From Giardia intestinalis (Eukaryota), in the NCBI GenBank assembly GCA_000002435.2, contig CM018793.1: a DNA stretch of 64,000 nt; one strand, 5' to 3'. Of this stretch, positions 7,091 through 20,864 are shown one piece after another. Made by a program: the position numbers and the translations under genes. The notes under the pieces are model-generated. The model was not told where the DNA came from. It made no database searches and was given only the letters and a program-made list of their open reading frames with translations. Numbering within the stretch: the stretch's first letter is position 1; every line of letters begins with the position of its first letter.

Positions 7091-7159
7091 TATTTATTTT
7101 CCCCACTCACACCAACCATTTGAAAGTGGAATCTGTTCTGAGAAAATAAAATGACGTAA
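7091..7159. promoter_or_regulatory. conserved bidirectional intergenic cassette (copy C1) with a 2-codon uORF ATG-ACG-TAA abutting the polB ATG
   Basis: The sequence is tatttattttcc...CCAACCATTTGAAAGTGGAATCT...GAGAAAATAAAATGACGTAAATG. Related cassettes lie at 11795-11867, 18294-18365 and 19231-19343, with an orphan at 20700-20747. Confidence 0.5.
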
Positions 7160-10100
7160 ATGGCAACCACTAGGGAACTCCTGACCATGCATCCCCAGCA
7201 GATGTCCGAGGACCAGCTCGCCCAGCTCAAGACGTCGCTCGAGACGCTCAACTACACCCAGCTCCGACAATACGTGCTCGGCCGCGTCAAGCCCCTCATC
7301 GAGAACGTCCGCAAGCACATCCAGGAGGACCCCGTCGGCTCGGTAGATCAAGTCCTCGACTTCCAGGACGGCTTCTGGTCCAAGGACCTGATCCAGCGCG
7401 TCCGCTGGAACCTCGCCCAGTTCAGGGTAAACGAGAAGAACCCCCGCAGAGTGCCGACCAGCAGAGCGAAGGAGGCGCTGGAGCTGAACTACATGACCGA
7501 CTACTCCTTCCGGCGCATCGTCTACCCGATCGTCGCAGACCTCGCCAAGGCTCTTTATCTCCGCGCAGAGGAAGCTAACCGCCGCAACACCGACGCTTCG
7601 GTGCGCTATGTCCCGCTTCTTGTCATGTTCAACCAGCAGAACACGTTCGGCTATCCGCCCCGCGTCGCCTTCCTCGTGACGCCTGCCGTCATCACGTTCC
7701 TCCGCGGATGGAAGGTCTTCGCCGACGGAGACGACGCCCACCAGCACTACCTCAACGCGGTCACGAGGGACGCGGCGCAGATCCACGGCGTCCAGTCCGC
7801 AGAGCCTGGCGAGATGCTCTACTGCTTCAACTGGGACCCCATTTTCGCCGGCACAGAGAGCGACCCCGAGAACCCCCGCAACGCCATGTTCTCCTTCGGG
7901 ACGATGTACGAGCCCGTCTTCATCTTCCAGATCCAGATCATCCGCACCAGAGAGGGCCAGCGGAAGCTCATCCACCGCAGGGGAGGTATGGCGCCCTTCA
8001 CGAACGACTCGTTCTTCGACCTCACGCGCTACCAGATCGAGAAGACAGGCGAGGGCTTCAAGAACAGCAAGGACACGTGTTTCCTCTACGCCCTCAAGCA
8101 GAGCGGCGTGCTGAGCGACGACGAGATACGGGCCGCCGCCTTCCACATCAACCAGGCCTCTGTCACCTTCGCGATGATCGACGCCATCGGCAAGCAGCTC
8201 TTCGTCTGCTTCCACATGCACATGGCAGACAGGGTCGTCCTCAAGGGCGCGCAGAAGAACCGCAAGGTTCCGCCGGGCGTCGCGATCCGGAACATCCACC
8301 TGGGCTTCGACTTCAACCACTACTACATCTTCGACGAGAAGCTCCCCTACAGCAAGACGTACGTGAACAACGCAGCCGTCATGATGGAGCACCACACATA
8401 CCCCGCGAACACGAACCTGCGCGAGGTCAACGTCAGAGACACCTTCCACCCGCAGACCAGGGAGCCGACGAAGAAGGTCGTCTTCGGCTACCACCGCGAC
8501 GACGACCCCCATACATGCTCGAGTCGGGACCTCATCCTCTCGCTCCACAAGCAGGGCCTCCTCAAGCCCATCCGCTCCGACAGCCTGCTGGCCATCAAGG
8601 AGTCCTTCATCCGCGAAGAGCACTACGAGGAGGACGCGCTCAACTACTGCGAGGACCAGCTGAAGGAGATCACGCCGAAGAAGAAGACCCAGTCGCCCAA
8701 GGACGTCTGGTTCGCAGACTTCGAGACGACGACCGACGGGGACCAGCACCACCCGTTCCTCCTCTGCTTCCACGGGATCAACAACGTCACGGGGACGTAC
8801 TGGGCGAAGGACTACAACAGCATCGGGGACATGGTCCGAGCGGCCTTCAACCGCCTCGCGATGCTCAACCGGCCCCAGCTGGTGTACTTCCACAACCTCA
8901 ACTACGACGGGGCCTTCGTCCTCCCGTACTTCGACGTCAAGAAGGACAGCATCGTCACCCTCGGGGCGAGCAAGATCATCGCGTTCACGATCCATGTCCG
9001 GCTGAGCGACGACCGGAAGAACAAGCCGATCCCGATCCACTTCCGGGACTCCTACGCCCTGATCACGGCTCCCCTCAGCAAGTTCGGCAAGATGTTCAAC
9101 CTCAACGTGCACAAGGAGGTCCTCCCGTACTCGTTCTACACCCAGGACAACGTCAAGAAGCTGTGCCAGGGCTTCAAGCCGACGCTCGAGGAGTACCTCT
9201 CGTACGAGATCGAGAGCAGGAGGGAGGAGCTCGAGCAGCTGCTCCGTACGCTGCCGGAGATGCTGGTAATAGACAGGGTCGACGCCTTCAAGTACGCCCA
9301 CTACTACTGCGCAAGAGACTGCCACGTGCTCAAGGACGGGGTGATGGGCTTCAGACGCCAGCTCCTCGAGGTCACGGGCATCGACGCCTTCACATCCATG
9401 ACGCTCCCGAGCATTGCCTACAACTTCCTCATCAACGAGAAGTGCTTCGAGGGCTGCTTCAACCTCAACACGGCGCCGCTCCTCTTCGTACGCCAGTGCG
9501 TGACGGGCGGGCGCTGCATGCTCCGGTGCAACGAGAAGCAGTACGTCGAGGGCGAGGTCATGGACTTCGACGCCGTCTCGCTGTATCCGTCTGCCATGGC
9601 GCGCCTCCACACCCTCATGGGCCACCCGAAGATCGTCGACCCCGAGAAGCACGACCTCGGCTGGCTCCTCCGGCAGGACGGCTGCTTCCTCGAGATCGAC
9701 ATCGAGGTCGTCCCGAAGCAGCTCGACTTCCCCCTCATCAACAGGCAGACGGAGAAGGGGAGGCACTTCTCGAACGAGCCGGGCCCGATGTTCGCCGACA
9801 ACATCACGATCGAGGACATCATCGAGTACCACAAGGTCCCGATGAACCGGATCAGGGTCCTCCGGGGCTACTACTACGACGAGGGCAAGAACACGAACAT
9901 CCAGGCCGTCATCCGGAAGATCTTCGAAGCGCGGCTCAAGTTCAAGGCGGAGGGCAACCCGCTCGAGAGCATCTACAAGCTCATCATGAACAGCTGCTAC
10001 GGGAAGAGCATCCTCAAGCCCGTCTACAAGCGGATGAACACGGTCGACCACGCGGGCCTTGAGAGAGAGCTCCTCGACAACTCGGCCGATGTCCTCTGCT

Positions 10101-10756
10101 GGGAGCCGCTCTACGACGGCGGCCGCTTCCTCCTCAAGCAGAGCAAGCCCCTTCTGGAGGCGAACAGCTTCCCGACGTTCGGGGTCCAGGTGCTCTCGAT
10201 GAGCAAGCGCATCATGACGGAGGTGATGGCGACGGCCCAGGACCACGGGCTCCCGATCTACTACACAGACACGGACAGCATCCACATCGACAAGGCGTCC
10301 ATCGAGCCCCTCCGGAACTACTTCCACGCGCGCTTCCAGCGGGAGCTCATCGGGAAGAACCTCGGCCAGTTCCACTCAGACTTCCCCGACAGCCCCTCCG
10401 GGGAGATGTTCGTCAGCCGCTACTTCATCGGCGTCGGCAAGAAGGCATACCTCGACATCCTCCAGGACAGCCAGAACAACATGAGCTACCACGCGCGCCT
10501 CAAGGGCATCCCCGAGCAGGCGATCCTCAACGAGGCCCGGCAGCGCTGCTCCCACAACTTCCTCGGCGGGCTCTACAACCTCTACGCGGACCTCTACAAC
10601 GGCGTGCCCCAGACCTTCAACCTCATCTACGACGGCGCGGTGCGCTTCGTGCGAGACGCCAGCCTCGCCTACCGCTGCAGGGACGACTTCAAGCGGAGAG
10701 TCATCTTCGAGAGGGAGCCCGATGAGCCCCTGAACATATCAAAGCTGATGCAGTAA
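7160..10756 (+). CDS. family-B DNA polymerase of the protein-primed type (pPolB), 1198 aa, with a ~500-aa N-terminal extension
   Basis: Exo I is VWFADFETTTDG (aa ~517-527). Exo II is FHNLNYDGAF (aa ~577-586). Exo III is YYCARDCHVL (aa ~715-724). Motif A is DFDAVSLYPSAM (aa 802-813). Motif B is KLIMNSCYGKS (aa 940-950). Motif C is YYTDTDSIH (aa 1034-1042). A KKAY motif lies at aa ~1094-1097. The stop lies in AGTAAAT. Confidence 0.92.
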   Translation: MATTRELLTMHPQQMSEDQLAQLKTSLETLNYTQLRQYVLGRVKPLIENVRKHIQEDPVGSVDQVLDFQDGFWSKDLIQRVRWNLAQFRVNEKNPRRVPTSRAKEALELNYMTDYSFRRIVYPIVADLAKALYLRAEEANRRNTDASVRYVPLLVMFNQQNTFGYPPRVAFLVTPAVITFLRGWKVFADGDDAHQHYLNAVTRDAAQIHGVQSAEPGEMLYCFNWDPIFAGTESDPENPRNAMFSFGTMYEPVFIFQIQIIRTREGQRKLIHRRGGMAPFTNDSFFDLTRYQIEKTGEGFKNSKDTCFLYALKQSGVLSDDEIRAAAFHINQASVTFAMIDAIGKQLFVCFHMHMADRVVLKGAQKNRKVPPGVAIRNIHLGFDFNHYYIFDEKLPYSKTYVNNAAVMMEHHTYPANTNLREVNVRDTFHPQTREPTKKVVFGYHRDDDPHTCSSRDLILSLHKQGLLKPIRSDSLLAIKESFIREEHYEEDALNYCEDQLKEITPKKKTQSPKDVWFADFETTTDGDQHHPFLLCFHGINNVTGTYWAKDYNSIGDMVRAAFNRLAMLNRPQLVYFHNLNYDGAFVLPYFDVKKDSIVTLGASKIIAFTIHVRLSDDRKNKPIPIHFRDSYALITAPLSKFGKMFNLNVHKEVLPYSFYTQDNVKKLCQGFKPTLEEYLSYEIESRREELEQLLRTLPEMLVIDRVDAFKYAHYYCARDCHVLKDGVMGFRRQLLEVTGIDAFTSMTLPSIAYNFLINEKCFEGCFNLNTAPLLFVRQCVTGGRCMLRCNEKQYVEGEVMDFDAVSLYPSAMARLHTLMGHPKIVDPEKHDLGWLLRQDGCFLEIDIEVVPKQLDFPLINRQTEKGRHFSNEPGPMFADNITIEDIIEYHKVPMNRIRVLRGYYYDEGKNTNIQAVIRKIFEARLKFKAEGNPLESIYKLIMNSCYGKSILKPVYKRMNTVDHAGLERELLDNSADVLCWEPLYDGGRFLLKQSKPLLEANSFPTFGVQVLSMSKRIMTEVMATAQDHGLPIYYTDTDSIHIDKASIEPLRNYFHARFQRELIGKNLGQFHSDFPDSPSGEMFVSRYFIGVGKKAYLDILQDSQNNMSYHARLKGIPEQAILNEARQRCSHNFLGGLYNLYADLYNGVPQTFNLIYDGAVRFVRDASLAYRCRDDFKRRVIFEREPDEPLNISKLMQ

Positions 10757-10763
10757 ATTTACT
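10752..10763. terminator. perfect 12-bp stop/poly(A) palindrome AGTAAATTTACT
   Basis: Stops at 10754-10756 (+) and 10763-10765 (-). Confidence 0.6.
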
Positions 10764-11794
10764 TAGCGCTCCATAATCTCCTTGAACCTCCCAAAGGTTA
10801 GAGGCTCAGCATTGAAGAACTTCTTCTTCCTTGCCCACGCAGAGAGACGATCGAAGAAAGCCTCAGACGATATCTGCTTGTCCCCAATGGTAAAGCTGTA
10901 ACGACGATCATGATACTCATCAATATCGAACCAGGCGTCTGTGATCGCAAACTGACGCGTAACAGCAGCTGCCTTTATCAAACAGTACTGGCCACCGCTC
11001 CATATGGTTCCCACATGACCCGGCTCTATCGCGACAACTGGGTTGTAAATGCCCTTATGCTCGAGGAGGAACTCGTTCGTCTGCCTGATCGTGTCAAGCG
11101 CATCGACCTCGCACAGACGATGAGGATCATCCGAGGCCCTGTCCTTGATGTGGTCCTCACAGACAGCCGGGTCGATAGCGAAGCGCACATGGAAGGCCGG
11201 AAGGATGCCTGCGCGGAGCATGTAGTGGTCGATCAGGTAGTGGAGGTACTGGCCTTGCTCCTTCGTGATGTAGCCGTCACTCATCTTGAAGAGGATGAAC
11301 GCGCTAGTAGACGGCAGCCAGCGGTCGAAGATGATGAAGTCGTACTGCTGATACTCTTCGGCAAAACGGCAATGAAGAAGCTGCTTCCCCAGTGCATGGA
11401 CCACCTGCTCCTGGAACTGGAAAGCAAGCTCCCTGGGGTTCTTGTAGTACTCCTCGAGGGTGATGCCTCCGTTCTGTCCAAAGTGGTTGTCTGCCACGGC
11501 CTCCTCGATGATGGTAGCTTCGAAGCCTTGGTCGATCAGGTACTTCTTGAGATGCTTGCAGAAGGTGGACTTGCCTGCGCCGATGGGACCGTCAACAACG
11601 ATGATGCGAGGATCAATGACAACAGGCGGCACAACTCTCGAACTGAAATCGCTGAGCTTCCATACGAGGTTATCGTCCATGTTGATCCCGATGTCAACTG
11701 ACTCCAGAAAGTCTTCGACTGGCCAGTGTGATGATTTACTATCGATGAGGCCTGGCTCAGCTGGCTGGTTCTGGGGCTCGTAGTACTGGCTCAT
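10763..11794 (-). CDS. deoxynucleoside kinase family protein (dNK/dCK-like P-loop kinase) with N- and C-terminal extensions
   Basis: The start was trimmed to MSQYYEPQNQ, which follows ggaaaataaa. The P-loop is VVDGPIGAGKST. Other dNK-like motifs are IIEEAV, LEEYYKNPRELAFQFQ and IIFDRWLPSTSAF (ERS-like), plus the lid-like HIKDRASDD. Order and spacing resemble Drosophila dNK and dCK/dGK. Confidence 0.75.
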   Translation of the reverse strand: MSQYYEPQNQPAEPGLIDSKSSHWPVEDFLESVDIGINMDDNLVWKLSDFSSRVVPPVVIDPRIIVVDGPIGAGKSTFCKHLKKYLIDQGFEATIIEEAVADNHFGQNGGITLEEYYKNPRELAFQFQEQVVHALGKQLLHCRFAEEYQQYDFIIFDRWLPSTSAFILFKMSDGYITKEQGQYLHYLIDHYMLRAGILPAFHVRFAIDPAVCEDHIKDRASDDPHRLCEVDALDTIRQTNEFLLEHKGIYNPVVAIEPGHVGTIWSGGQYCLIKAAAVTRQFAITDAWFDIDEYHDRRYSFTIGDKQISSEAFFDRLSAWARKKKFFNAEPLTFGRFKEIMER

Positions 11795-11867
11795 TTTATT
11801 TTCCCAGTAGTGCACGTCTCAAGAGCCAAACCATTTTAAAGTGAATTCTCCCCACGGAAATAAAAGT
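11795..11867. promoter_or_regulatory. conserved bidirectional intergenic cassette (copy C2)
   Basis: The sequence is tttattttcc...GCCAAACCATTTTAAAGTGAATTCTCCCC..GGAAATAAAAGTATG. Confidence 0.5.
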
Positions 11868-12122
11868 ATGGCTGGCCACCTTCTCAACAGCAACGGGACC
11901 GCGAAGAACGAGAACAAGCTCTACACCCAGAAGCCGACGCCCTTCTACGACGCGGGCACGGTGCCGGTCCGTCTGTCCTCGGTACCCTTCGAGAGCCGCA
12001 ACGAGCCGATCCGCGTCCAGATCGACGAGCCGCCCAAGCAGCGCCCGCGAGCTGGTCTAGTGCGCACCCGCAAGAGGATGATCCCGAGGAACCGCTGGAA
12101 GAGGAACGGGAACAAGCAGTAA
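11868..12122 (+). CDS. small basic protein (84 aa), island-specific
   Basis: The start was trimmed to MAGHLL, which follows GGAAATAAAAGT. The C-terminus is basic (RAGLVRTRKRMIPRNRWKRNGNKQ). A paralog lies at 18366-18617. The stop lies in AGTAAAC. Confidence 0.55.
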   Translation: MAGHLLNSNGTAKNENKLYTQKPTPFYDAGTVPVRLSSVPFESRNEPIRVQIDEPPKQRPRAGLVRTRKRMIPRNRWKRNGNKQ

Positions 12123-12131
12123 ACGTTTACT
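12118..12131. terminator. perfect 14-bp stop/poly(A) palindrome AGTAAACGTTTACT
   Basis: Stops at 12120-12122 (+) and 12127-12129 (-). Confidence 0.6.
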
Positions 12132-12723
12132 TCGAGATCTCCTCGAGGAAGCGGTTGAAGGTGTTCGTCTCGGTGGAGGCGTTGAGGAAGCGCTGGATGC
12201 CGTCAGCCCACGCCTGGGCGCTCTCGTCGCTGATGCTGAGACAGGTGGCTGTGTACGTGCGCTTGTTCTTGGGAAGCCTCGAGAGCCTCACGAACTCGTC
12301 TCCGGTCTCCTCGTAGAGATAGAAGGCAGAGCGTGCTCCATCAGAAGCGCGTCTGCAGAAAGCGGTGTAGTGAGGGGCTTGCACGAACTCGTCCTCGGGT
12401 CGCTTGACGAAGCGGAAGACGACGCCCTGCTGGTTGAGCCACTTGCAGAACCAGGAGGTGACTCGCTGATAGTCCTCAGTACCCTCAGCGCACTCTGCGG
12501 TGACTCGACCGAGCAGTCTTCCGACCTGGCCGCAAAAGGACTTAAACGCGGGACTGGACGGGGCGGGAGGATTTGCCACTGGCAGAACGGGCTCGGCGTC
12601 GGCGGTCTGTCGCTGTCGGGTTCTAGAGGCAGACTTCCTATGAGTGGGCTCTCTGGAGGAAGGAATGACATCTTGAAGGAAGGGGTCCTCGGCGAAGTGC
12701 TCTGGTATGAATCCATCTGCCAT
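12127..12723 (-). CDS. hypothetical protein (198 aa), island-specific
   Basis: The protein begins MADGFIPEHF and the ATG follows aggaaaataaaataagc. A paralog lies at 18622-19230, with the C-terminal ~130 aa well conserved. Confidence 0.6.
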   Translation of the reverse strand: MADGFIPEHFAEDPFLQDVIPSSREPTHRKSASRTRQRQTADAEPVLPVANPPAPSSPAFKSFCGQVGRLLGRVTAECAEGTEDYQRVTSWFCKWLNQQGVVFRFVKRPEDEFVQAPHYTAFCRRASDGARSAFYLYEETGDEFVRLSRLPKNKRTYTATCLSISDESAQAWADGIQRFLNASTETNTFNRFLEEISK

Positions 12724-12754
12724 GCTTATTTTATTTTCCTGGGAGCCCTGTAAC

Positions 12755-12826
12755 CAGATCAGATCAGAATTGATTCCTGATCAATTCGGACGAAGCGACG
12801 ACTCCAGAAAAAAAAATAACGCTGAC
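12755..12826. repeat. partial copy of the 5' part of repeat module R (GATCA/GAATTGAT iteron-like array plus A9-TAACGCTGAC)
   Basis: Patchy match to 13702-13792 and 19809-19905. It includes the 8-bp inverted repeat GAATTGAT-tcctg-ATCAATTC. Confidence 0.6.
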
Positions 12827-12839
12827 GTGAATTCGATGT

Positions 12840-13679
12840 TTACTTTGCAAACAGCTTTACGATGTCTTCCTTGTCTCCGGCAATGGCCAACGCAAAAACC
12901 CTACCATTATTGATGTCCTTCTCCTTATCTGCCAACAAAGCAGCACAAGCAGCATGGCCATTTCTCACAGCCCACTCGAAAGCAGTACCACGGGCGTTAT
13001 TGCATAACCTGGCCTCCTTATCTAACAACAGCTTGACGATGTCTGCGTAACCACAGGATGCTGCTAGCATGAGAGCGGTCCAGCCGTCGTTATCCTTCAT
13101 GCCTGCCTCCTTCTCCGCTAATAGGTTAGCGCACTTAGTGTGACCCTTACACGCAGCCCACATGAGAGCAGTCCTACCATCTTTATTCTTCATGCCGGCC
13201 TCCTTCTCTAACAACAGCTTAACGCTGTATGCGGAATCCTTGGATGCTGCTATTATGAGAGCCGACCCGCAGCATCTCGCACATATACCGGCCTCCTTCT
13301 TCACTAGCAGGTCAACGCACTTAAAATTAAACTTACTCACAGCCCACATGAGGGCGGTCCTACCGATGACATCCTTCATACCAGCCTCCTTCTCTAACAG
13401 CAGCTTAACGCAGTCTGTATAGCCTTCGGATGCTGCTATCATGAGAGCCGTCAAGCCGTGTCCATCACTCATACCAGCCTCCTTCTCCACTAGCAGGTTA
13501 GCGCAGTTAGTATGACCCTCCCTCGCAGCCCACATGAGGGCAGTCCAGCTGTTGAAATCCCTCAGGCCAGCCTCCTTGTCTACTAGTTCCCTGACGACAT
13601 CGATGTTACCTTGCGCTGCTGCTTCTATGAGATCCCTAAAACCATATCCTGGCGACTTGTATTCTCGATAAGCCTTCAT
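12840..13679 (-). CDS. ankyrin-repeat protein (279 aa, ~8 repeats of the TALMWAA..GH..CV.LL..KEAG type)
   Basis: A regular ~33-aa ANK periodicity runs through the whole ORF. The start is ggaaaataaaatATG. The stop lies in AAGTAAAC. Confidence 0.88.
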   Translation of the reverse strand: MKAYREYKSPGYGFRDLIEAAAQGNIDVVRELVDKEAGLRDFNSWTALMWAAREGHTNCANLLVEKEAGMSDGHGLTALMIAASEGYTDCVKLLLEKEAGMKDVIGRTALMWAVSKFNFKCVDLLVKKEAGICARCCGSALIIAASKDSAYSVKLLLEKEAGMKNKDGRTALMWAACKGHTKCANLLAEKEAGMKDNDGWTALMLAASCGYADIVKLLLDKEARLCNNARGTAFEWAVRNGHAACAALLADKEKDINNGRVFALAIAGDKEDIVKLFAK

Positions 13680-13701
13680 ATTTTATTTTCCTCCCCGCCC
13701 T

Positions 13702-14161
13702 GAATCAATTAATCAGATCAGAATCAATTCGTCAGAATGGTTTGCACTTCCTGACTGCCGCCTCCCAGAAAAAAAAAATAACGCTGGCCTGCTTTCTGCT
13801 TTCGGGCTGTCTGTATGTCGCACTTCGGTGTCGTGCGGGCCCGGGGGCAGGGAGCAGACCAGGCTGGCCGGCAGCTGAACCGGGCGCGAACGCATCACAC
13901 ACATCCAAGGACAACGCGGTCTCCTCCCGGCGTGCACGGCACCACGCTGGGCGGTTCCGGGGGGAGGCCGCGATTTTTTTTGAAAATTTACAGGTTTTTT
14001 ATTCTGTTGAAAAGTAGGTAAACGAGCGCCAGCGTGTGGGAGCCTAGTGGGCGGACCGGCACACGCAGACGCACTTGTGGGGGACGCTTTCGTTTTTTTG
14101 GGCCCAGCCCCGTGCAGGCCCAAAAAAACGAAAGTGGGCACCACAAGGATATATACTACTG
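13702..14161. repeat. repeat module R, copy A (~460 bp)
   Basis: Colinear with 19809-20231. The order is a GAATCA array, A10-TAACGCT, a conserved core GTATGTCGCAC..GGTGTCGTGCGGGC, ~190 bp of GC-rich sequence, T8 and an AT-rich tract, an 18-bp-stem hairpin (14087-14134), then GGATATATACTACTG. Homology stops abruptly after this last motif. Confidence 0.85.
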
Positions 14162-17100
14162 ACGCCCGCCGTCATCACGTTCCTCCGCGGCTGGAAGGTC
14201 TTCGCAGACGGCGACGACGCGCACCGGCACTACCTCAACGCGGTTACGAAGGACGCGGCGCAGATCCACGGCGTCCAGTCTGCAGAGCCCGGCGAGATGC
14301 TCTACTGCTTCAACTGGGACCCGGTCTTCGGGGGCACTGAGAGCGACCCCGAGAACCCCCACAACGCGCTCTTCTCGTTCGGGACGATGTACGAACCCGT
14401 CTTCTTCTTCCAGATCCAGATCGTGCGCATGAAGGATGGCCAGCGGAAGTTCATCCACCGGCGCGGCGGCCTGGCCCCCTTCACGAACGACTCGTTCTTC
14501 GACCTCAACCGCTACCAGATCGAGCGGACAGGCGAAGGCTTTCGGAACAGCAAGGACACGTGCTTCCTCTACGCTCTCAAGCAGAGCGGGCAGCTGAACG
14601 ACGAGGAGATCAAGGCCGCGGCGCTCCACATCAACCAGGCGGCGGTCACGTTCGCGATGGTCGACGCGATCGGCAAGCAGCTCTTCATCTGCTTCCACAT
14701 GCACATGCCGGACAGGGTCGTCCTCCGGGGCGCACAGAAGGGCCGCAAGCTCCCGCCCGGCGTCGCACTCCGGAACATCCAGATAGGCTTCGACTTCAAC
14801 CACTACTACATCTTCGACGAGAAGCTCCCCTACAGCAAGGCGTACGTGAACCACGCGTCCGTGATGATGGAGCACAACGCGTACCCGGAGAACGCGAACG
14901 TCCGCGAGGTCAGCGTCCGGAACACCTTCCACCCGGAGACCCGGGAGCCGATGCAGAAGGTCGTCTTCGGCTACCACCGCGACGACGACCCCCACACGTG
15001 CACGAGCCGCGACCTCCTCCTCTCGCTCCACAAGCAGGGCCTCCTCCGCCCGATCCGCTCAGACGACCTCCTCGCCGTCAAGGAGTCCTTCATCCGCGAG
15101 GAACACTACGCGGAGGACAACCTCGAGTTCTGCGAGAACCAACTCAAGAAGATCGAGCCCAAGAAGAAGCAGGCCCCGCCGAAGGACGTCTGGTTCGCGG
15201 ACTTCGAGACGACGACCGACGGGGACCAGCACCACCCGTTCCTCCTCTGCTTCCACGGGGCGAACAATGTGACGGGGACTACTGGGCGAAGGACTACACA
15301 GCATCGGGGACATGGTCCAGCGGCCTTCCCGCCTCGCGACCTCAACCGGCCCCAGCTGGTTACTTCACAACCTCAACTACGACGGGGCCTTCGTCCTCCC
15401 GTACTTCGACGTCAAAAGGACAGCATCGTCACCCTCGGGGCGAGCAAGATCATCGCGTTCACATCCACATCCGACTGAGCGACGACCGGAAGAACAAGCC
15501 GATCCCGATCCACTTCCGGGACTCCTACGCCCTGATCACGGCGCCCCTCAGCAAGTTCGGGAAGATGTTCAACCTCGACGTCCACAAGGAGGTCCTCCCG
15601 TACTCGTTCTACACGCAGGAGAACGTCCGCAAGCTCGCAGAGGGCTACCGGCCGACCCTCGAGGAGTACCTCTCGTACGAGATGGAGAGCAGACGGACCG
15701 AGCTCGAGCAGCTGGTCCGCATGCTGCCGGGGATGCTCGTCGAGGACCGCGTCGATGCGCTCCGCTACGCCCACTACTACTGCGCGCGGGACTGTCACGT
15801 GCTCAAGGAGGGCGTCCTCCGCTTCCGGCAGCAGCTCCTCGAGGTCACCGGGATCGACGCGTTCACGTCCATGACTCTCCCGAGCGTCGCGTACAACTAC
15901 CTCATCAACGAGAAGTGCTTCGAGGGCTGCTTCAACCTCAACACGGCTCCGCTTCTCTTCGTGCGCCAGTGCGTGACGGGCGGGCGCTGCATGCTCCGGA
16001 ACAACGAGAAGCAGTACGTCGAGGGCGAGATCATGGACTTCGACGCGGTCTCCCTGTACCCGTCCGCAATGGCGCGCATCTACACCCTCAAGGGCCACCC
16101 GAAGGTCGTCGACCCCGAGAAGCACGACCTCGGCTGGCTCCTCCGCCAGGACGGCTGCTTCCTCGAGATAGACATTCAGATCGTCCCGAAGACCCTCGAC
16201 TTCCCCCTCATCAACCGCCAGACGGAGAAGGGCCGCCACTTCTCAAACGAGCCAGGCCCGATGTTCGCGGACAACATCACGATCGAGGACATCATCGAGT
16301 ACCACAAGGTCCCGATGAACCGAATCCGCGTCCTCCGGGGCTACTACTACGACGAGGGGAAGAACTTCGCCATCCAGACCGTTATCCGGAAGCTCTTCGA
16401 TACGCGCCTCAAGTTCAAGGCGGAGGGCAACCCCCTTGAGAGCATCTACAAGCTCATCATGAACAGCTGCTACGGGAAAAGCATCCTCAAGCCCGTCTTC
16501 AAGCGGATGAACACCGTCGACCGGGCCGGGCTCGAGCGGGAGCTCCTCGACAACTCCGCCGACATCCTCTGCTGGGAGCCGCTCTACGACGGCGGCCGCT
16601 TCCTCCTCAAGCAGAGCCGCCCGCTCCTCATGGCGAACAGCTTCCCGACGTTCGGCGTCCAGGTCCTCTCGATGAGCAAGCGCATCATGACGGAGGTGAT
16701 GGCAACGGCCCAGGACCACGCGCTCCCGATCTACTACACGGACACCGACAGCATCCACATCGACAAGCGGTCAATAGAGCCGCTCCGGAACTACTTCCAC
16801 GCGCGCTTCCACCGCGAGCTCATCGGCAAGAACCTCGGCCAGTTCCACTCGGACTTCCCCGACAGCCCCTCCGGCGAGATGTTCGTCAGCCGCTTCTTCG
16901 TCGGCGTCGGCAAGAAGGCGTACCTCGACATCCTCCAGGACAGCCAGGGCCACATGAGCTACCACGCGCGCCTCAAGGGCATCCCCGAGCAGGCGATCCT
17001 CAACGAGGCCCGCCAGCGCTGCGCCCAGAACTTCCTCGGCGGGCTCTACAACCTCTACGCCGACCTCTACAACGGCGTCCCCCAGACCTTCAACCTCATC

Positions 17101-17229
17101 TACGACGGCGCCGTCCGCTTCGTCCGCGACGCGCACCTCGCCTACCGCTGCCGCGACGACTTCAAGCGCCGCGTCATCTTCGAGAAGGAGCCCGACGCGC
17201 CCCTGAACGTCGTCAAGCTCATGCAGTGA
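14162..17229 (+). pseudogene. second pPolB copy, 5'-truncated (starts at the equivalent of aa ~173) and frame-broken around Exo II
   Basis: The 14075-15478 frame and the 14560-17229 frame together are colinear with polB aa ~173-1198. Motifs A, B, C and KKAY are intact (DFDAVSLYPSAM, KLIMNSCYGKS, YYTDTDS). A net 10 nt are missing between 15274 and 15474. There is no ATG or promoter at the 5' junction with module R. Confidence 0.85.
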
Positions 17230-17236
17230 ATTTACT
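17225..17236. terminator. stop/poly(A) palindrome AGTGAATTTACT
   Basis: Stops at 17227-17229 (+) and 17232-17234 (-). Confidence 0.55.
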
Positions 17237-18293
17237 CCATGCTGCTCTCCTCGTCGCGCGCAAGGACCTCCTGGAACTCATCAAACGACAAGGCCATCAT
17301 CTGCATGCGGCGCTTGAACGGATTGACGAACCTCCCATATGCGGTCCAATCGCAGAGCTCGTTGAAGAAGACAAACGCGTTGATCCTGCGCATCCCGATC
17401 TGGACGAAGTAGCGGCGGTCCTCGCCGAGGAAGAGAGTATTCTCGACAACGTACTGGCGCGTCACCCTCGCGGCCGCGACGAGCGAGAACTGGTTCCCCG
17501 CCGAGAAGGCCTTGCTCCACTCGGTGTCCGCTGGATGGTTCAGGTTGAAGACCGGCGTGTAGACGCCCTTGTGCTTGAGGAGGAACTCGTTCGTCTTACT
17601 CACGACCCCGAGCGCGTCCTCCTCGCACTGGCGGTGTTCCTCCTCAGCAGCGCGCTGGACGATACGCTGCGCACAGATCAGCGGGTCCGTCGCAAAGCGG
17701 ACGTGTGTCGCCGGAAGGATCCCCGCGTACGACATGTAGACGTCGATCAGGTAGTGGAGGTACATCGCCTGGCGGCCCGTAATATGGCCCTCCTGCACCT
17801 GGAAAAGGACGAACGCACTCGTCGAGGGCAGCCAGCGGTCGAAGATGACGAGGTCGTAGTCCTTGTACTTGTCCGTGAAGCGGTACTCGAGGAGCTGGTC
17901 TGCGAGAGCATGTGTGACGGCGAGCTGGAAGCGGTACGCGTTGGCGTGCGGGTCCCTGTAATACTCGTCGAGCGTGATCCCGTACGCGCTGAAGCACTCG
18001 AGCCCCACAACCTCCTCGATGACCACTGCCTTCAGCCCGCTGTCCTGGGCGTGCTCGACAAGGCGGCGGCAGAAGAGGGACTTGCCGGCCCCGATGGGTC
18101 CGTCGACGACAATCATGCGCGGATCGACGCACGCCGGCGGGATGACGGATGCGTGCCGCGCCAGGCTCAACCCGCGAAGAGTGGACAGCTTCGAGTTCAC
18201 CTCGAGCAGCTCCTCGGACACGTCGTAGTAGAGGCTCGAGTGGCGGACAAGCTCGGTCCCGGGCTGGTTCTGGGGCTCGTAGTACAGGCTCAT
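17232..18293 (-). CDS. deoxynucleoside kinase family protein, divergent paralog of 10763-11794
   Basis: The start was trimmed to MSLYYEPQNQ, which follows ggaaataaa. The P-loop is VVDGPIGAGKSL. Also present are LDEYYRDPHANAYRFQ, VIFDRWLPSTSAF and HYLIDVYM. The ORF is intact. Roughly half its residues are shared with copy 1. Confidence 0.72.
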   Translation of the reverse strand: MSLYYEPQNQPGTELVRHSSLYYDVSEELLEVNSKLSTLRGLSLARHASVIPPACVDPRMIVVDGPIGAGKSLFCRRLVEHAQDSGLKAVVIEEVVGLECFSAYGITLDEYYRDPHANAYRFQLAVTHALADQLLEYRFTDKYKDYDLVIFDRWLPSTSAFVLFQVQEGHITGRQAMYLHYLIDVYMSYAGILPATHVRFATDPLICAQRIVQRAAEEEHRQCEEDALGVVSKTNEFLLKHKGVYTPVFNLNHPADTEWSKAFSAGNQFSLVAAARVTRQYVVENTLFLGEDRRYFVQIGMRRINAFVFFNELCDWTAYGRFVNPFKRRMQMMALSFDEFQEVLARDEESSME

Positions 18294-18365
18294 TTTATTT
18301 CCTGGCGGCCTCCCCAATAAATGCCAAAGCATTTGAAAGTGAATTCTCCCGCCAAAAATAAAAGT
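18294..18365. promoter_or_regulatory. conserved bidirectional intergenic cassette (copy C3)
   Basis: The sequence is tttatttcc...GCCAAAGCATTTGAAAGTGAATTCTCCCGCCAAAAATAAAAGTATG. Confidence 0.5.
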
Positions 18366-18617
18366 ATGGCAGGCCACCTCCTCAGCAGCAAGGGGACCAC
18401 GAAAAACGAGAACAAGCTCTTCACCCAGAAGCCGACGCCCTTCTACGACGCAGGCACCGTCCCGGTCCGCCTCGCGTCCGTGCCCTTCGAGAACCGCAAC
18501 GAGCCGATTCGCGTCCAGATCGACGAGCCGCCCAAGCCCCGCCCTCGCGCAGGCCTCGTCCGCACCCGCAAGAGGCTGATCCCGAGGAACCGCTGGAAGA
18601 AGAACACGTACCAGTAA
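18366..18617 (+). CDS. small basic protein (83 aa), paralog of 11868-12122
   Basis: The protein reads MAGHLLSSKGTTKNENKLFTQKPTPFYDAGTVPVRL... About 70 of its first 79 residues are identical to copy 1. Confidence 0.55.
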   Translation: MAGHLLSSKGTTKNENKLFTQKPTPFYDAGTVPVRLASVPFENRNEPIRVQIDEPPKPRPRAGLVRTRKRLIPRNRWKKNTYQ

Positions 18618-18626
18618 ATGTTTACT
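18613..18626. terminator. stop/poly(A) palindrome AGTAAA-tg-TTTACT
   Basis: Stops at 18615-18617 (+) and 18622-18624 (-). Confidence 0.55.
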
Positions 18627-19230
18627 TCGAGATCTCCTCGAGGAAGCGAGCGAACGTGCCCGGCTCGGTCGAGGCGTTGAGGAAGCACTGGATGCCCTCT
18701 GCCCACTGCAGCGCCTGCTCGTCGGTGAGGCACGGACTTGTCGCCGTGTACGAGCGCTTGAACTTCGGGAGCCGCGACAGCCTCACTAACTCCTCCCCGG
18801 TCTCCTCTAAGAGGTAGAAGGCAGAGCGCACTCCATCTGATGCTCGCCTGCAGAAGGCGGTGTAGTGGGGCGCGCGCACGAACTCGTCCTCGGGCCTCTT
18901 GACGAAGCGGAAGATGACCCCGAGCTGGTTGAGCCACTGGCAGAACCAGGCCGTGACTCGCTCGTAGTCCTCCGTGCCCTCGGCGCAGTCGGCAGTAATG
19001 CGGCCCAGTAGTCTTCCCACCTGGCCACAGAAGCTCTTGAAGGGCGGGCCGGCGCGGGCGGATGTCTGCTGTGCGGGCTCGGGGTGCGAAGTCTGCTGAA
19101 CGGGGTCGGGGTCGGCGTGCGCTCGAGCCTTGAGGGGGCTTCGCTTGCGAGAGGATCCTCGAGGAGGGAGGGCGATGTCTTGCGTGAAGAGGTCCTCGGT
19201 GTAATGCTCAGGAATGATGCCATCTGCCAT
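18622..19230 (-). CDS. hypothetical protein (202 aa), paralog of 12127-12723
   Basis: The start was trimmed to MADGIIPEHY, matching copy 1. The core FKSFCGQVGRLLGR.TA.CAEGTEDY.RVT.WFC.WLNQ.GV.FRFVKRPEDEFV.APHYTAFCRRASDG is shared. Confidence 0.6.
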   Translation of the reverse strand: MADGIIPEHYTEDLFTQDIALPPRGSSRKRSPLKARAHADPDPVQQTSHPEPAQQTSARAGPPFKSFCGQVGRLLGRITADCAEGTEDYERVTAWFCQWLNQLGVIFRFVKRPEDEFVRAPHYTAFCRRASDGVRSAFYLLEETGEELVRLSRLPKFKRSYTATSPCLTDEQALQWAEGIQCFLNASTEPGTFARFLEEISK

Positions 19231-19343
19231 GCGTCCTTTTATTTTCTTGACGCTCCTATCATAAAGACGCAAACCATTTCAAATCCACTTCTACCAAACA
19301 ATATTAAATTCACTTCCTTCCGGCGTCTGCAGAAAAAAAAAAA

Positions 19344-19787
19344 ATGCTGGACCTCCGCAAGCTTAACAAGGAGGACTTCGAGCAGGCCATAGCCACCTTC
19401 ATCGAGCGTGCTCTTGACCTCGAACGGCCGGAAGATCTGAACAAAGACGAGCCGATTTATAACAGAAGCTATCTCCAGATCGACCCCGTCACGCACGGAG
19501 AGTATAACCTCACCCCGGCCGTTCTCTGGTCGCTGATAGTTATGACACTGACCTCCTATGGCCTTACAATGTTTACTGAGGACGACTGTCTTTGCGTGCA
19601 ATATGGCAAAATATACAAGTTTCCCATCGAGCCGGCAGACGAAGACGTTCTCAGAGAGATACACTATGCCATACACGTTGAAGCGACAGAAGACTTGGAA
19701 CTCTTCCCCCAGACCGAAGAGGAGATCGTGGCAGCGTTCAAACAGATACTTGGCGGACAGATAGAATTCCACATCCGACCCAAGTAA
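19344..19787 (+). CDS. hypothetical acidic protein (147 aa), found only in unit 2
   Basis: The ATG directly follows an ~11-nt A-run. The stop lies in AAGTAAAC. No paralog is present in unit 1. It occupies the slot held by the ankyrin gene in unit 1. Confidence 0.5.
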   Translation: MLDLRKLNKEDFEQAIATFIERALDLERPEDLNKDEPIYNRSYLQIDPVTHGEYNLTPAVLWSLIVMTLTSYGLTMFTEDDCLCVQYGKIYKFPIEPADEDVLREIHYAIHVEATEDLELFPQTEEEIVAAFKQILGGQIEFHIRPK

Positions 19788-19808
19788 ACCTGCGCTCCTC
19801 GGTCATGC

Positions 19809-20231
19809 GAATCAATTCCCGAATCAGAATCAAATCAAAATCAATTCGTCACAATTAATTGCACGAGGGGTCTCACAGGGCTCAGAAAAAAAAAATTACG
19901 CTGACCTGCCGGGCTGTCTGTATGTCGCACCTCGGTGTCGTGCGGGCCCGACAGGCTGGCTGGCTGGCCGGCAGCTGAACTGAGCCTCGAACGTACCACA
20001 CCCACAACGCGTCTCCTCCCGGCGTGCACAGTTCACGCTGGGCGGTTCCGGGGGGAGGCGCGTTTTTTTTAGAAAAATTACAGGTTTTTTATTCTATCAA
20101 AAATCATAATGTTTGGACGGGAGATTGCAGCAGGGAGAACAAAATCGCGGCGGTCGTTTTCGTTTTTTTGGGTAAGGCCCCCGGCCGGCCCAAAAAAACG
20201 AAAGCGGGCGCCTCGAGGATATATACTACTG
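19809..20231. repeat. repeat module R, copy B (~423 bp)
   Basis: Same element order as copy A: GAATCA array, A10-TTACGCT, GTATGTCGCACCTCGGTGTCGTGCGGGC, GC-rich core, T8, hairpin at 20158-20203, GGATATATACTACTG. Confidence 0.85.
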
Positions 20232-20359
20232 GCGTGCTCCCTGTAGAGGTGATCGCGCTCTCTACGTTGATCGAGCACGATATTGTACAACTTCTTCACT
20301 TTGAGGTTGCGGCGCCTTATTTGGGTTCTAGCTCGTTCAAAGAGCTCCCCGTCGGTTCT

Positions 20360-20445
20360 AACAGGCCCCAGCTCGTCCACTTCCACAGCCTCAACTACGA
20401 CGGGGCTTTCATCCTTCGACATCAAGGAGGACTCCATCGTCACCG
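20360..20445 (+). pseudogene. third, isolated pPolB fragment covering only the Exo II region
   Basis: It translates to RPQLVHFHSLNYDGAFI....DSIVT, compared with polB NRPQLVYFHNLNYDGAFVLPYFDVKKDSIVT. The flanks are unrelated to polB. Confidence 0.65.
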
Positions 20446-20699
20446 CACGAGGCACCCCGCAGGTCCGGGAGGGCCCGAGCATCGGCCAATCCACGACAGC
20501 ACCAACGATGGCGAAGCAGACCCACAACCATCCCACACTCTGGGCCGGACTCCCGCCCCGCGGGCCCTACTCTGCCCCGCCGCCGCTGGCCCTGCGCCCT
20601 GGGTCGGAGCGGCGGCCCGCGCCCCCGCAAGCCTCTCGGCCGCCGGAGATGCCGCGGCGCCACGCGCTGGGCCGCCCCGGGACCCGGCGCCGTCTTCCA

Positions 20700-20800: not shown

Positions 20801-20864
20801 CCTTTCCTCAAGCCCCTCTGCGGAGGGCAGGGCAAGAGCCTGCGCGGCCTGCCCTGGGCGCTGT

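What the first reader, a model, noticed from the sequence alone, without database searches (positions are those of the whole stretch)
7091..19272. Replication module present twice with strongly mosaic divergence between the copies
Seen: the block polB / dNK / 84-aa ORF / ~200-aa ORF (7.1-12.7 kb) recurs at 14.2-19.2 kb in the same order and orientation. By eye, divergence is very uneven. The polB C-terminal 590 aa are about 9 in 10 identical, the small ORF ~87%, and the ~200-aa ORF well conserved only in its C-terminal two-thirds. The dNK shares only about half its residues, and the two dNK copies also differ visibly in GC content. Most polB differences are conservative, and no stop codon occurs outside the indel cluster. 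Inference: this is not a simple recent tandem duplication. Either two diverged element variants lie side by side with gene conversion in polB, or the dNK paralogs have diverged rapidly in function.
Basis: seen in the sequence. Interest (0 to 1): 0.6.

Follow-up and report, generated by a model that had tools for sequence, protein, structure and literature searches.

The report
Duplicated polymerase–kinase block in Giardia
A roughly 6-kb block of virus-like replication genes really does sit twice, side by side, in the Giardia intestinalis reference chromosome. The two copies diverge unevenly because their parts have different histories and constraints, which is useful for Giardia genomics but an ordinary kind of genome evolution.

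Summary
The window is Giardia intestinalis WB (2020 PacBio reference). Its left 23 kb is a GC3-rich island encoding a protein-primed family-B polymerase (polB).

The block polB/dNK/84-aa/200-aa occurs twice in tandem. Copy 2 starts at polB codon 173. Identity is mosaic:
- polB: 89% nt
- dNK: 48% aa
- 84-aa ORF: 86–88% aa
- 200-aa ORF: 80% aa in the C-terminal part, 48% in the N-terminal part

Both copies are under purifying selection. The "indel cluster" (8 deletions, 15279–15462) is probably a long-read assembly error. The 2007 annotation of the same strain has an intact 980-aa polB2 that is identical everywhere else.

The cluster lies inside a statistically supported gene-conversion tract (copy 1 into copy 2). 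Adjacent genes have incongruent trees. polB2 is sister to the polB of another Giardia lineage, and polB1 is sister to that pair. dNK1 branches outside all dNK2-type genes, with no rate asymmetry.

The best reading is two diverged variants side by side, with sequence exchange in polB, s84 and p200. Gene-specific codon-bias constraint adds to the pattern. Rapid functional divergence of the dNK copies is not supported. This is a new member of a known kind, of moderate interest.

The parts
7160..10756 (+). polB1: full-length protein-primed family-B DNA polymerase, 1198 aa (KAE8305704 / XP_001707488).
   Evidence: Pfam PF03175, E=5e-37. Exact match to the Giardia WB protein. Exo I/II/III and Pol A/B/C/KxY motifs are present. 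GC3 is 0.94.
10763..11794 (-). dNK1: divergent deoxynucleoside-kinase-fold gene, 343 aa. This type occurs only in the A/E/L020 group of lineages.
   Evidence: Pfam PF01712, 58 bits. Named 'Deoxynucleoside kinase' in NCBI. GC3 is 0.69. Only one 90% cluster of this type exists in the protein database.
11868..12122 (+). s84_1: 84-aa ORF of unknown function.
   Evidence: Conserved in all related loci. dN/dS is 0.05-0.18. No Pfam hit.
12127..12723 (-). p200_1: 198-aa ORF (GL50803_0060433) of unknown function.
   Evidence: Exact match. The AF2 model has low confidence, with the N-terminal 53 aa disordered. No Pfam hit.
12737..12833 (+). Extra copy of the 5' part of the R element, between p200_1 and the ankyrin gene.
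   Evidence: nhmmer with the R profile, E=1.2e-7.
12840..13679 (-). Ankyrin-repeat gene (279 aa). It lies in unit 1 only, between p200_1 and R1.
   Evidence: Pfam Ank_2, E=4e-61. Also present in L006 and L019.
13684..14160 (+). R1: non-coding element that ends unit 1. It carries a hairpin (14074-14147) and the motif GGATATATACTACT (14147-14160). The 143-aa ORF 13713-14144(-) is spurious.
   Evidence: R1 and R2 are 72% identical, with indels that are not multiples of 3. The hairpin folds at -31.3 kcal/mol, z=-8.8. Five compensatory pairs. Motif.
14160..17229 (+). polB2: copy of polB from codon 173. The first in-frame ATG is at 14297, which gives the 980-aa XP_001707491 of the 2007 annotation.
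   Evidence: P0015 is identical to the window outside 15279-15470. All catalytic motifs are kept. Branch-specific nonsynonymous:synonymous counts are 32:54, the same as in L004.
15276..15534 (+). Gene-conversion tract in polB2, corresponding to 8793-9061 in polB1 (exonuclease domain, ExoI-ExoII region). It is copy-1-like.
   Evidence: The three longest concordant fragments are adjacent, with permutation p<0.0005. Mismatch rate is 4.5%, against 10.7-13.8% in the flanks. W2 is like copy 1 at 22 sites and like L004 at 7, against 46:64 and 69:84 in the flanks.
15279..15462 (+). Cluster of 8 small deletions (10 nt) that breaks the polB2 frame. Probably an error of the 2020 long-read assembly.
   Evidence: The assembly paper describes PacBio frameshifts corrected only where 75-bp reads mapped.
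17232..18293 (-). dNK2: deoxynucleoside-kinase-fold gene, 353 aa (KAE8305708, GL50803_32674). This is the ancestral type shared with all other lineages.
   Evidence: Pfam PF01712, 41.9 bits.. GC3 is 0.88.
18366..18617 (+). s84_2: second copy of the 84-aa ORF. The ORF can extend upstream to 18321.
18622..19230 (-). p200_2: second copy of the ~200-aa ORF (GL50803_15893).
19239..19787 (.). Unit-2 spacer, in place of the ankyrin gene. It holds overlapping ORFs of 177 aa (-) and 147 aa (+) and has no homologue in unit 1.
19803..20234 (+). R2: non-coding element that ends unit 2. It carries a hairpin (20145-20216) and the motif at 20217-20230.
20351..20444 (+). 95-bp polB fragment (codons ~562-594), about 120 nt after R2. 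It is a vestige of a further partial unit. R fragments follow at 20714-20792 and 21132-21202.
   Evidence: nhmmer E=1e-16..

Best explanation
**What it is.** The window is a piece of the Giardia intestinalis WB (assemblage A) chromosome. Its first ~23 kb form a lineage-specific island of viral or Polinton-like ancestry. The island's core is a protein-primed family-B polymerase followed by a divergent deoxynucleoside kinase and two small genes.

The core is present as two tandem units of about 6.1-6.5 kb. Each unit runs from polB (from codon 173 in unit 2) to a non-coding R element, which ends in a conserved hairpin plus the motif ATATATACTACT. A vestige of a third unit follows.

**Why divergence is mosaic.** The two units are diverged variants whose parts have different histories.
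1. The dNK genes are deep paralogues or xenologues. They split before the sampled Giardia lineages diversified and have not been homogenised since.
2. polB, s84 and the 3' part of p200 share a much more recent ancestry, because sequence has been exchanged between variants by interlocus gene conversion or recombination. One 270-370-bp tract in the exonuclease domain still shows this directly.
3. Gene-specific constraint is superimposed. polB and s84 keep extreme GC3 (0.9-0.96) and evolve slowly even at synonymous sites. dNK1 and p200_1 lost that bias. The p200 N-terminus is a disordered, fast-evolving tail.

**State of copy 2.** Both units are kept by purifying selection. Copy-2 polB is most likely an intact, N-terminally shortened gene. 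Its frameshift cluster is most likely an assembly error.

**Shown versus inferred.**
- Shown: the duplication, the mosaic profile, the conversion tract, the tree incongruence, the selection and the GC3 pattern.
- Inferred: the order of events, and the mechanism that first placed the units side by side. I favour illegitimate recombination joining the end of R to polB codon 173.
For: **Identity of the locus.**
- Exact protein matches to WB KAE8305703-08 on a 4,018,654-bp contig.
- Host genes to the right of the island.

**Tandem structure and boundaries.**
-.
- The polB remnant after R2.

**Selection.**
- Pairwise dN/dS is 0.18-0.34 for all four gene pairs.
- Changes private to polB2 are 32 nonsynonymous and 54 synonymous. 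The full-length L004 polB shows 26:46.
- All catalytic motifs are kept in both copies.

**Incongruent histories.**
- The polB tree rooted with L008 gives (L001, L007, ((W1 clade), (W2, L004))), with 100% and 99% bootstrap.
- The rooted dNK tree puts the dNK1 clade outside all dNK2-type genes, including assemblage B GL50581_2239, with 100% bootstrap.
- The ML topology test favours that placement by 14.3 lnL units (SE 7.3, RELL 0.94).
- The relative-rate test is symmetric, 16:21.
- s84 of L004 groups with copy 1 (6:0:0 informative sites).
- polB shows near-equal conflicting support, 24/22/13.

**Conversion tract.**

**Constraint.**
- GC3 values.
- The same gene-by-gene mosaic appears between orthologous loci: polB 97-98%, dNK1 83-94%, and p809 and cc958 45-90%.
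- The p200 N-terminus is predicted to be disordered.

**Assembly artefact.**
- The 2007 protein P0015 differs from the window only inside the deletion cluster.
- The assembly was PacBio RS II, polished with Quiver and corrected with 75-bp Illumina reads. Its authors report PacBio-induced frameshifts (PMC7000408).
Against: **Evidence for a rate-only explanation.**
- Each gene's W1-W2 distance can be normalised by its own rate within the copy-1 clade, using the branch lengths. The ratios are then fairly uniform, 2.7-5.3.
- The neighbouring genes p809 and cc958 are 2-2.5 times accelerated in the A/E/L020 clade, with GC3 erosion. A rate shift therefore contributes, and could explain more than I allow.

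**Weak points in the dNK placement.**
- It rests on one distant outgroup, with 41-44% identity.
- The ML test is borderline, about 2 SE, under a simple Poisson+Γ model.

**Missing comparative data.**
- No other lineage could be shown to carry two units, because the contigs of related lineages break near the unit ends.
- Losses or gains cannot therefore be counted.

**Weak points in the artefact reading.**
- I could not examine reads.
- The deleted bases are mostly not in homopolymers.
- Independent short-read contigs stop before the tract.
Confidence: 0.55

Rival explanations
1. There was one old tandem duplication and no difference in age between the parts. The mosaic then comes only from gene-specific rates. 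polB and s84 are held by protein constraint and extreme codon bias. dNK1 and p200_1 relaxed and drifted in the A/E/L020 clade, losing GC3 and evolving faster. The p200 N-terminus is disordered. The only recombination is the short tract in polB.
For: - GC3 tracks divergence.
- The orthologue comparison shows the same gene-by-gene pattern.
- W1-W2 distances normalised by each gene's own rate are 2.7-5.3.
- p809 and cc958 are significantly accelerated in the same clade.
- dNK1 evolves 3.5-7 times faster than polB1 within its clade, against 1.5-2 times for dNK2-type genes.
Against: - The outgroup relative-rate test for dNK1 versus dNK2 is symmetric (16:21). A 2:1 acceleration is rejected at p=0.003 and a 4:1 acceleration at about 1e-6.
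- Identity to the outgroup dNK is about equal for both types, 41-42% versus 41-45%.
- No derived residues are shared by dNK1 and (W2, L004).
- The ML test disfavours the polB-like placement.
- The s84 topology conflicts with that of polB and dNK.
Confidence: 0.22
2. Copy 2 is not an in-situ duplicate. It is a second variant of the module, acquired from another Giardia lineage (L004-like) by genetic exchange or by a mobile or viral intermediate. It was inserted next to the resident variant, at the end of R.
For: - Copy 2 aligns contiguously with L004 at 87.5% over 5.1 kb, including dNK.
- It is sister to L004 in polB (84-99%) and in dNK (98-100%).
- It keeps the high GC3 typical of L004 and L001, while its unit-1 neighbours have eroded.
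- No dNK2-type gene was found for the assemblage E-like lineages in the protein database.
Against: - W2-L004 divergence is still large: dS 0.27-0.42, and dNK is only 78% identical at the amino-acid level.
- s84_2 is not L004-like.
- R1 and R2 flank the unit as expected for a tandem event.
- The L006 contig (E-like) ends exactly at the R1|polB2 junction. That suggests a junction exists there in that lineage too.
Confidence: 0.15
3. Copy 2 is a decaying pseudogene copy. It has a truncated polB with real frameshifts, and the uneven identity reflects patchy decay.
For: - polB2 lacks codons 1-172 and carries 8 frameshifting deletions in the window.
- It is not annotated as a protein in the 2020 annotation.
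- A degraded third fragment exists.
Against: - There are no indels or stops in the other 2.9 kb, despite 11% substitutions.
- The nonsynonymous:synonymous counts on the polB2 branch equal those of intact orthologues.
- All catalytic motifs are intact.
- dNK2, s84_2 and p200_2 are intact ORFs that are identical in 20 or more independent short-read assemblies.
- The 2007 assembly of the same strain reads through the tract.
Confidence: 0.06

Closest known systems
Polinton/Maverick-type protein-primed family-B polymerases (pPolB) in parasitic protists, for example the four 'family B2' polymerases of Entamoeba histolytica (PMC3511435). Giardia pPolB was already included in the pPolB tree of Yutin et al. 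2015 (PMC4642659, Fig. 6).
   Same: - Both match Pfam PF03175.
- Both have a long N-terminal extension without known homology in front of the exonuclease and polymerase domains.
- Both occur as several paralogues in a parasite genome.
   Different: - No integrase, protease, packaging ATPase, capsid gene or terminal inverted repeat was found in the island or in 10-kb flanks of related loci.
- The genes are syntenic across Giardia lineages and are under purifying selection with host-like extreme codon bias. They look resident or domesticated rather than like a transposon family.
Tandem segmental duplicates evolving by interlocus gene conversion (concerted evolution with escape of some segments).
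   Same: - Direct tandem units.
- A statistically supported conversion tract.
- Sharp identity transitions.
- Conflicting phylogenetic signal along the repeat.
   Different: - Most of polB is not homogenised within the genome. polB2 is closer to another lineage's polB than to polB1.
- One gene pair (dNK) is older than the rest.
Non-TK1-like deoxynucleoside kinases, comprising the Drosophila multisubstrate dNK and Giardia's own dAK (PDB 8PUU) and dNK2 (GL50803_4558), described in PMC11662666.
   Same: - Both island genes match Pfam PF01712 above threshold.
- The P-loop and the DRW(L)PS motif are conserved in both copies.
   Different: - The island dNK profile hits Drosophila dNK at E=2.5e-7 but Giardia dAK only at E=0.16.
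- These genes are extra, with long N- and C-terminal extensions.
- They are not among the 'three dNKs' counted in that paper.

Membership tests
Protein-primed family-B DNA polymerase (Pfam DNA_pol_B_2, PF03175) | Profile match above the curated threshold. | tested here: met
   polB1 scores 128.3 bits and polB2 116.2 bits, against a cut-off of 25.8. There is a weak profile hit to phi29 polymerase 1xhx, E=0.057.
Protein-primed family-B DNA polymerase (Pfam DNA_pol_B_2, PF03175) | Exonuclease motifs I-III and polymerase motifs A (DxxSLYP), B (Kx3NSxYG), C (YxDTDS) and KxY. | tested here: met
   The motifs DFETT, HNLNYDG, YYCARDC, DFDAVSLYPS, KLIMNSCYGK, YYTDTDS and GKKAY occur at the same positions in both copies.
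Protein-primed family-B DNA polymerase (Pfam DNA_pol_B_2, PF03175) | Priming from a terminal protein, and TPR1/TPR2 insertions. | not testable with these tools
   The N-terminal 520 aa have no Pfam hit. No structure was made for polB.
Polinton/Maverick element | Retroviral-type integrase, adenain-like protease, A32/FtsK packaging ATPase and jelly-roll capsid genes next to pPolB. | tested here: not met
   None of these was found by Pfam in the island ORFs of the window, nor in the precomputed Pfam hits for genes of related loci. The only trace is a 'faint' Pox_A32 hit in the distant locus L008. Capsid folds were not tested by structure.
Polinton/Maverick element | Terminal inverted repeats. | tested here: not met
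   No long inverted repeat was found in 1-25 kb. No inverted copy of the R end was found in the window or in the loci. The left end of the island lies outside the window.
Non-TK1-like deoxynucleoside kinase (PF01712) | Profile match above threshold, a P-loop, and a DRS/ERS-type motif. | tested here: met
   dNK1 scores 58 bits and dNK2 41.9 bits, against a cut-off of 27. GPIGAGKS and FDRWLPS are invariant. Kinase activity and substrate are not testable here.
Tandem duplication with interlocus gene conversion | Direct repeats in the same order, with a definable junction. | tested here: met
   The junction is ...ATATATACTACTG|ACGCC, at position 14160 and polB codon 173.
Tandem duplication with interlocus gene conversion | Tracts of excess identity beyond chance. 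| tested here: met
   A GENECONV-like permutation test reached the observed run in 0 of 2000 shuffles, for tract 8793-9061.
Tandem duplication with interlocus gene conversion | Paralogues within one genome cluster together relative to orthologues (concerted evolution). | tested here: not met
   polB2 groups with L004, not with polB1. dNK1 lies outside all dNK2-type genes.
Pseudogene copy | Relaxed selection and scattered disabling mutations. | tested here: not met
   Nonsynonymous:synonymous counts are 32:54 on the polB2 branch. All frameshifts lie in one 190-bp tract, which is absent from the 2007 protein.

The most novel reading that the evidence does not exclude
The island may not be a dead viral relic. 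It may be a maintained protein-primed replication module, possibly still able to exist or move as a linear replicon between Giardia lineages.

Observations that leave this open:
- Each unit ends in a conserved hairpin plus an adenovirus-origin-like reiterated terminus (…ATATATACTACT).
- An independent metagenome contig ends exactly at that motif.
- polB is almost undifferentiated between assemblage A, the E-like lineages and L020, while neighbouring genes differ by 10-20%.
- The module carries its own two deeply diverged nucleoside kinases, in an organism that has no ribonucleotide reductase and lives on deoxynucleoside salvage.
Probability: 0.1. Interest if true: 0.8.

Novelty: new member of a known kind. 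Interest (0 to 1): 0.4.

Why it matters
**Reference genome.** The Giardia WB reference probably carries a local error that hides an intact second protein-primed polymerase gene. That gene was annotated in 2007 and dropped in the 2020 annotation.

**Drug-target work.** Giardia depends wholly on deoxynucleoside kinases for DNA precursors. The literature counts three such kinases. This island adds two further dNK-fold genes that are under selection and deeply diverged. They have unknown substrates and are worth testing in that context.

**Giardia evolution.** The locus is a compact natural example of reticulate evolution between diverged variants of a virus-derived module. It could help address the debated question of genetic exchange between Giardia assemblages.

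**Limits.** None of this is a new kind of mechanism.

Tried and rejected
**Searches that found nothing.**
- TBLASTN of polB against the phage and plasmid collections gave no match.
- IMG/VR has no relatives. PDB sequence search gave only a weak phi29 hit.
- Rfam found nothing across the whole window.
- Literature searches by gene ID and for a described Giardia pPolB island found nothing specific.

**Attempts to verify the deletion cluster in independent data. All failed or were inconclusive.**
- Exact-product look-ups for P0015, for 15565-17229 and for 14297-15478.
- Short-read contigs carrying dNK2 stop about 150 nt into polB2.
- A JGI metagenome pattern scan found nothing.
- The last protein search returned no copy-2-type fragments.

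**Hypotheses considered and rejected.**
- The island dNKs are Giardia's housekeeping dAK or dNK2. Rejected.
- dNK1 came from an L008-like element. Rejected, because L008's dNK is equidistant from both types.
- The 95-bp polB fragment at 20351 was the donor of the odd tract. Rejected.
- 20.4-23.2 kb is a decayed third polB unit. Only the 95-bp fragment and R pieces are detectable, and there is no codon periodicity.

**Other dead ends.**
- The p200 structure came out at pLDDT 53, too poor for a fold search.
- YN00 dN/dS failed numerically on most pairs.
- I could not date the conversion tract relative to the A/E split, because the tract holds no W1-private sites.


Full report
**1. What the window is**

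Ten ORF products were looked up by exact sequence. Eight are in the collection, and all eight are proteins of Giardia intestinalis WB (ATCC 50803, assemblage A) on a 4,018,654-bp contig.

| Window ORF | Database identity |
|---|---|
| cc958 | GL50803_16686 |
| polB1 | KAE8305704 / XP_001707488, "putative DNA polymerase" |
| dNK1 | KAE8305705, "Deoxynucleoside kinase" |
| p200_1 | GL50803_0060433 |
| dNK2 | KAE8305708 / GL50803_32674 |
| p200_2 | GL50803_15893 |

Ordinary Giardia genes lie to the right of about 24 kb. They include TBCC, delta-giardin, Glu-tRNA ligase, a proteasome ATPase, WD40 proteins, a VSP and Spt6. The left 23 kb are GC-richer and encode:
- a RING protein
- two large proteins without Pfam hits
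- a protein-primed family-B polymerase (PF03175, E=5e-37)
- dNK-fold proteins (PF01712)
- an ankyrin protein

**2.

Self-BLASTN, TBLASTN and a global alignment confirm that polB/dNK/84-aa/200-aa recurs in the same order and orientation.

| Segment | Identity between copies |
|---|---|
| polB codons 173-1198 | 88.9% nt, 87.8% aa (last 590 aa: 90.5%) |
| dNK | 47-48% aa; nt identity drops to 44-71% exactly over the CDS |
| 84-aa ORF | 86-88% aa |
| p200, aa 67-198 | 80% aa |
| p200, aa 1-66 | 48% aa |

GC is 0.534 for dNK1 and 0.623 for dNK2. GC3 is 0.69 and 0.88 respectively.

The units are longer than reported. Each ends in a non-coding element, R1 (13684-14160) or R2 (19803-20234). The two are 72% identical, with blocks of near-identity and indels that are not multiples of three. 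The "143-aa ORF" at 13713-14144 is therefore spurious.

After R2 come a 95-bp polB fragment (20351-20444; nhmmer E=1e-16) and scattered R pieces. This is a vestige of a further unit. In unit 1 an ankyrin gene sits between a duplicated 5' piece of R (12737-12833) and R1. Unit 2 has an unrelated spacer in that position.

**3. The indel cluster**

In 3.08 kb of polB alignment, the only indels are eight 1-2-nt deletions in copy 2 (10 nt, 15279-15462).

The 2007 annotation of the same strain contains XP_001707491, an intact 980-aa polB2. It is identical to the window's copy 2 at every residue outside that tract and reads straight through it.

The 2020 reference was built from PacBio RS II reads. 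Its authors report PacBio-induced frameshifts, which they corrected only where at least 10 mapped 75-bp Illumina reads gave at least 50% support (PMC7000408).

The tract is the one part of polB2 that is nearly identical to polB1. Short reads would therefore map to polB1 instead. I conclude the cluster is most likely an uncorrected assembly error (about 70-75%). I could not verify this in independent data.

Selection evidence agrees with an intact gene:
- Substitutions private to the polB2 branch are 32 nonsynonymous and 54 synonymous. This matches the full-length L004 polB (26:46) and polB1 (15:30).
- All exonuclease and polymerase motifs are intact.

**4. Relatives**

Only 12 clusters in a 5.8-billion-protein database match polB. 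All come from Giardia genomes or metagenomes. Contigs from other lineages carry the same gene order once: RING, p809, cc958, polB, dNK, s84, p200.

- L006, L019, L020 and assemblage E isolate P15 carry copy-1-type genes. P15 is 97.7% identical to polB1 and 82% identical to dNK1.
- L004, L001 and L007 (the last close to assemblage B GS) carry a dNK2-type gene.
- Copy 2 aligns contiguously with L004 at 87.5% over 5.1 kb, including dNK.

**5. Different parts have different histories**

- The polB protein tree rooted with L008 is (L001, L007, ((W1, L006, L019, L020), (W2, L004))), with 100% and 99% bootstrap.
- The rooted dNK tree puts the dNK1 clade outside a 100%-supported clade of all dNK2-type genes.
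- An ML comparison under Poisson+F+Γ prefers this placement to the polB-like one by 14.3 lnL units (SE 7.3; RELL 0.94).
- Tajima's test with the L008 dNK as outgroup is symmetric (16 versus 21). This rejects a 2:1 acceleration of dNK1 at p=0.003.
- dNK1 shares no derived residue exclusively with (W2, L004).
- s84 of L004 groups with copy 1 (6:0:0 informative sites).
- Within polB the three possible groupings get 24, 22 and 13 sites, which is reticulate signal.
- A GENECONV-like permutation test singles out 8793-9061 as a W1/W2 conversion tract (0 of 2000 shuffles). In that tract copy 2 matches the copy-1 clade at 22 sites and L004 at 7. The flanks give 46:64 and 69:84.

The dNK pair is therefore older than the polB pair. 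Sequence has moved between variants.

**6. Constraint also shapes the mosaic**

- polB has GC3 of 0.94-0.98 in every lineage, and s84 has 0.81-0.95. This is also what creates the 1093-aa shadow ORF on the opposite strand.
- In L004 and L001 nearly all island genes measured have GC3 of 0.86-0.98 (the exceptions are p200 and s84 of L001, both 0.82).
- In the A/E/L020 clade, p809, cc958, dNK1 and p200_1 fell to 0.6-0.73. Copy-2 genes kept 0.81-0.96.
- NG86 dS between the copies follows this pattern: polB 0.32, s84 0.41, p200 0.86, dNK 1.51.
- The same gene-by-gene pattern appears between orthologous loci: polB 97-98%, dNK1 83-94%, p809 and cc958 45-90%.
- p809 and cc958 are 2-2.5 times accelerated in the A/E/L020 clade.
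- The poorly conserved N-terminal third of p200 is Pro/Arg/Ser-rich, carries indels and is predicted to be disordered.

Rate heterogeneity is therefore a real contributor and the main rival explanation.

**7. Mechanism I commit to (confidence 0.55)**

Two diverged variants of the module lie in tandem. The junction joins the end of R (…ATATATACTACTG) to polB codon 173, which I read as illegitimate recombination with TG microhomology.

The dNK genes have stayed distinct since before the sampled lineages diversified. polB, s84 and the 3' part of p200 were brought closer by interlocus or inter-variant exchange, of which one tract is still visible. Codon-bias constraint exaggerates the contrast. 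Both units are functional genes under selection.

It remains unresolved whether the second variant arose by an ancient duplication with later homogenisation, or entered from an L004-like lineage.

**8. Comparison with what is known**

The polymerase belongs to the Polinton/Maverick-type pPolB family. Giardia's pPolB was already placed in such a tree (PMC4642659). Entamoeba has similar multi-copy, N-terminally extended enzymes (PMC3511435).

The island lacks every other Polinton hallmark that I could test, so I do not file it as a Polinton.

The dNKs are bona fide PF01712 members but are remote from Giardia's characterised dAK. The profile E-value is 0.16 against 8PUU and 2.5e-7 against Drosophila dNK. 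They are not among the three dNKs counted in PMC11662666.

**9. Verdict**

The feature is real and its pattern is correctly described. It is a new member of a known kind: a tandem duplicate with reticulate history in a virus-derived island. Interest is 0.4.

There are three practical results:
- a probable reference-genome error in polB2
- evidence against rapid dNK neofunctionalisation
- a conserved hairpin-bearing boundary element that deserves follow-up

Noticed in passing
window 13684-14160 and 19803-20234; L006 12471-12945; L001 16271-16817: A conserved non-coding R element ends each unit. It holds a hairpin with 28-31-nt arms (-29 to -32 kcal/mol, z -7 to -9), with 5 compensatory pairs across 4 sequences. 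The invariant motif GGATATATACTACT follows. The element is conserved even in the distant lineage L001, where it sits about 50 nt upstream of a + strand ORF. It may be a promoter or regulatory element, or an origin-like element.
   Followed up: partly
L006 12932-12945 (contig end), corresponding to window 14147-14160: An independent MEGAHIT metagenome contig ends exactly at …ATATATACTACT, the last base before the polB2 homology. It does not run on into the repeat, as a repeat-induced break would. This is unexplained. It could be a branch point between two continuations, or a real DNA end.
   Followed up: partly
window 7094-10375 (-) and 7160-10756 (+): polB has GC3 of 0.94-0.98 in all lineages. 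This generates a 1093-aa stop-free shadow ORF on the opposite strand. It is an extreme codon bias for a gene of viral ancestry.
   Followed up: partly
window 1776-7090, 10763-11794 and 12127-12723, compared with L004 and L001: GC3 has eroded in a lineage-specific way. p809, cc958, dNK1 and p200_1 have GC3 of 0.6-0.73 in the A/E/L020 clade, against 0.82-0.96 in L004 and L001. p809 and cc958 are also 2-2.5 times accelerated at the protein level there (Tajima p<1e-5).
   Followed up: partly
window 7160-10756 and 10763-11794, compared with L006, L019 and L020: polB1 is almost undifferentiated between assemblage A, the E-like lineages and L020. Quartet-informative sites are 12/10/7 in 3.6 kb. The adjacent dNK1 has 81/6/6 in 1 kb, and the left-flank genes differ by 15-18% nt. 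Possible causes are recent exchange of polB between lineages or very strong nucleotide-level constraint.
   Followed up: partly
window 10763-11794 and 17232-18293: [quoted passage not shown] Their substrates are unknown. Giardia lacks ribonucleotide reductase.
   Followed up: partly
window 20450-23200: A stretch of about 2.8 kb has GC of 0.63 but no long ORF, no codon-position GC periodicity, no Rfam hit and no detectable homology to island genes, apart from small R pieces at 20714-20792 and 21132-21202.
   Followed up: partly
L021 (SRR26410991), corresponding to window 17139-19137: A Logan contig differs from the window only by 4 indels, with 0 mismatches in 2 kb. The indels split dNK2 into ORFs of 181 and 177 aa. 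This is probably sequencing error in that run. In 20 or more other samples the region is 100% identical to the window.
   Followed up: partly
window 12955-13586: The ankyrin gene contains internal tandem repeats (67-85% identical copies). This is ordinary ankyrin-repeat periodicity.
   Followed up: no
L008 (ERZ27287779): A distant relative of the island (polB 55% identical) has a different gene order. It has its own 271-aa dNK and a gene with a faint Pox_A32 (packaging ATPase) hit. It may come from another Giardia species or from a virus.
   Followed up: no
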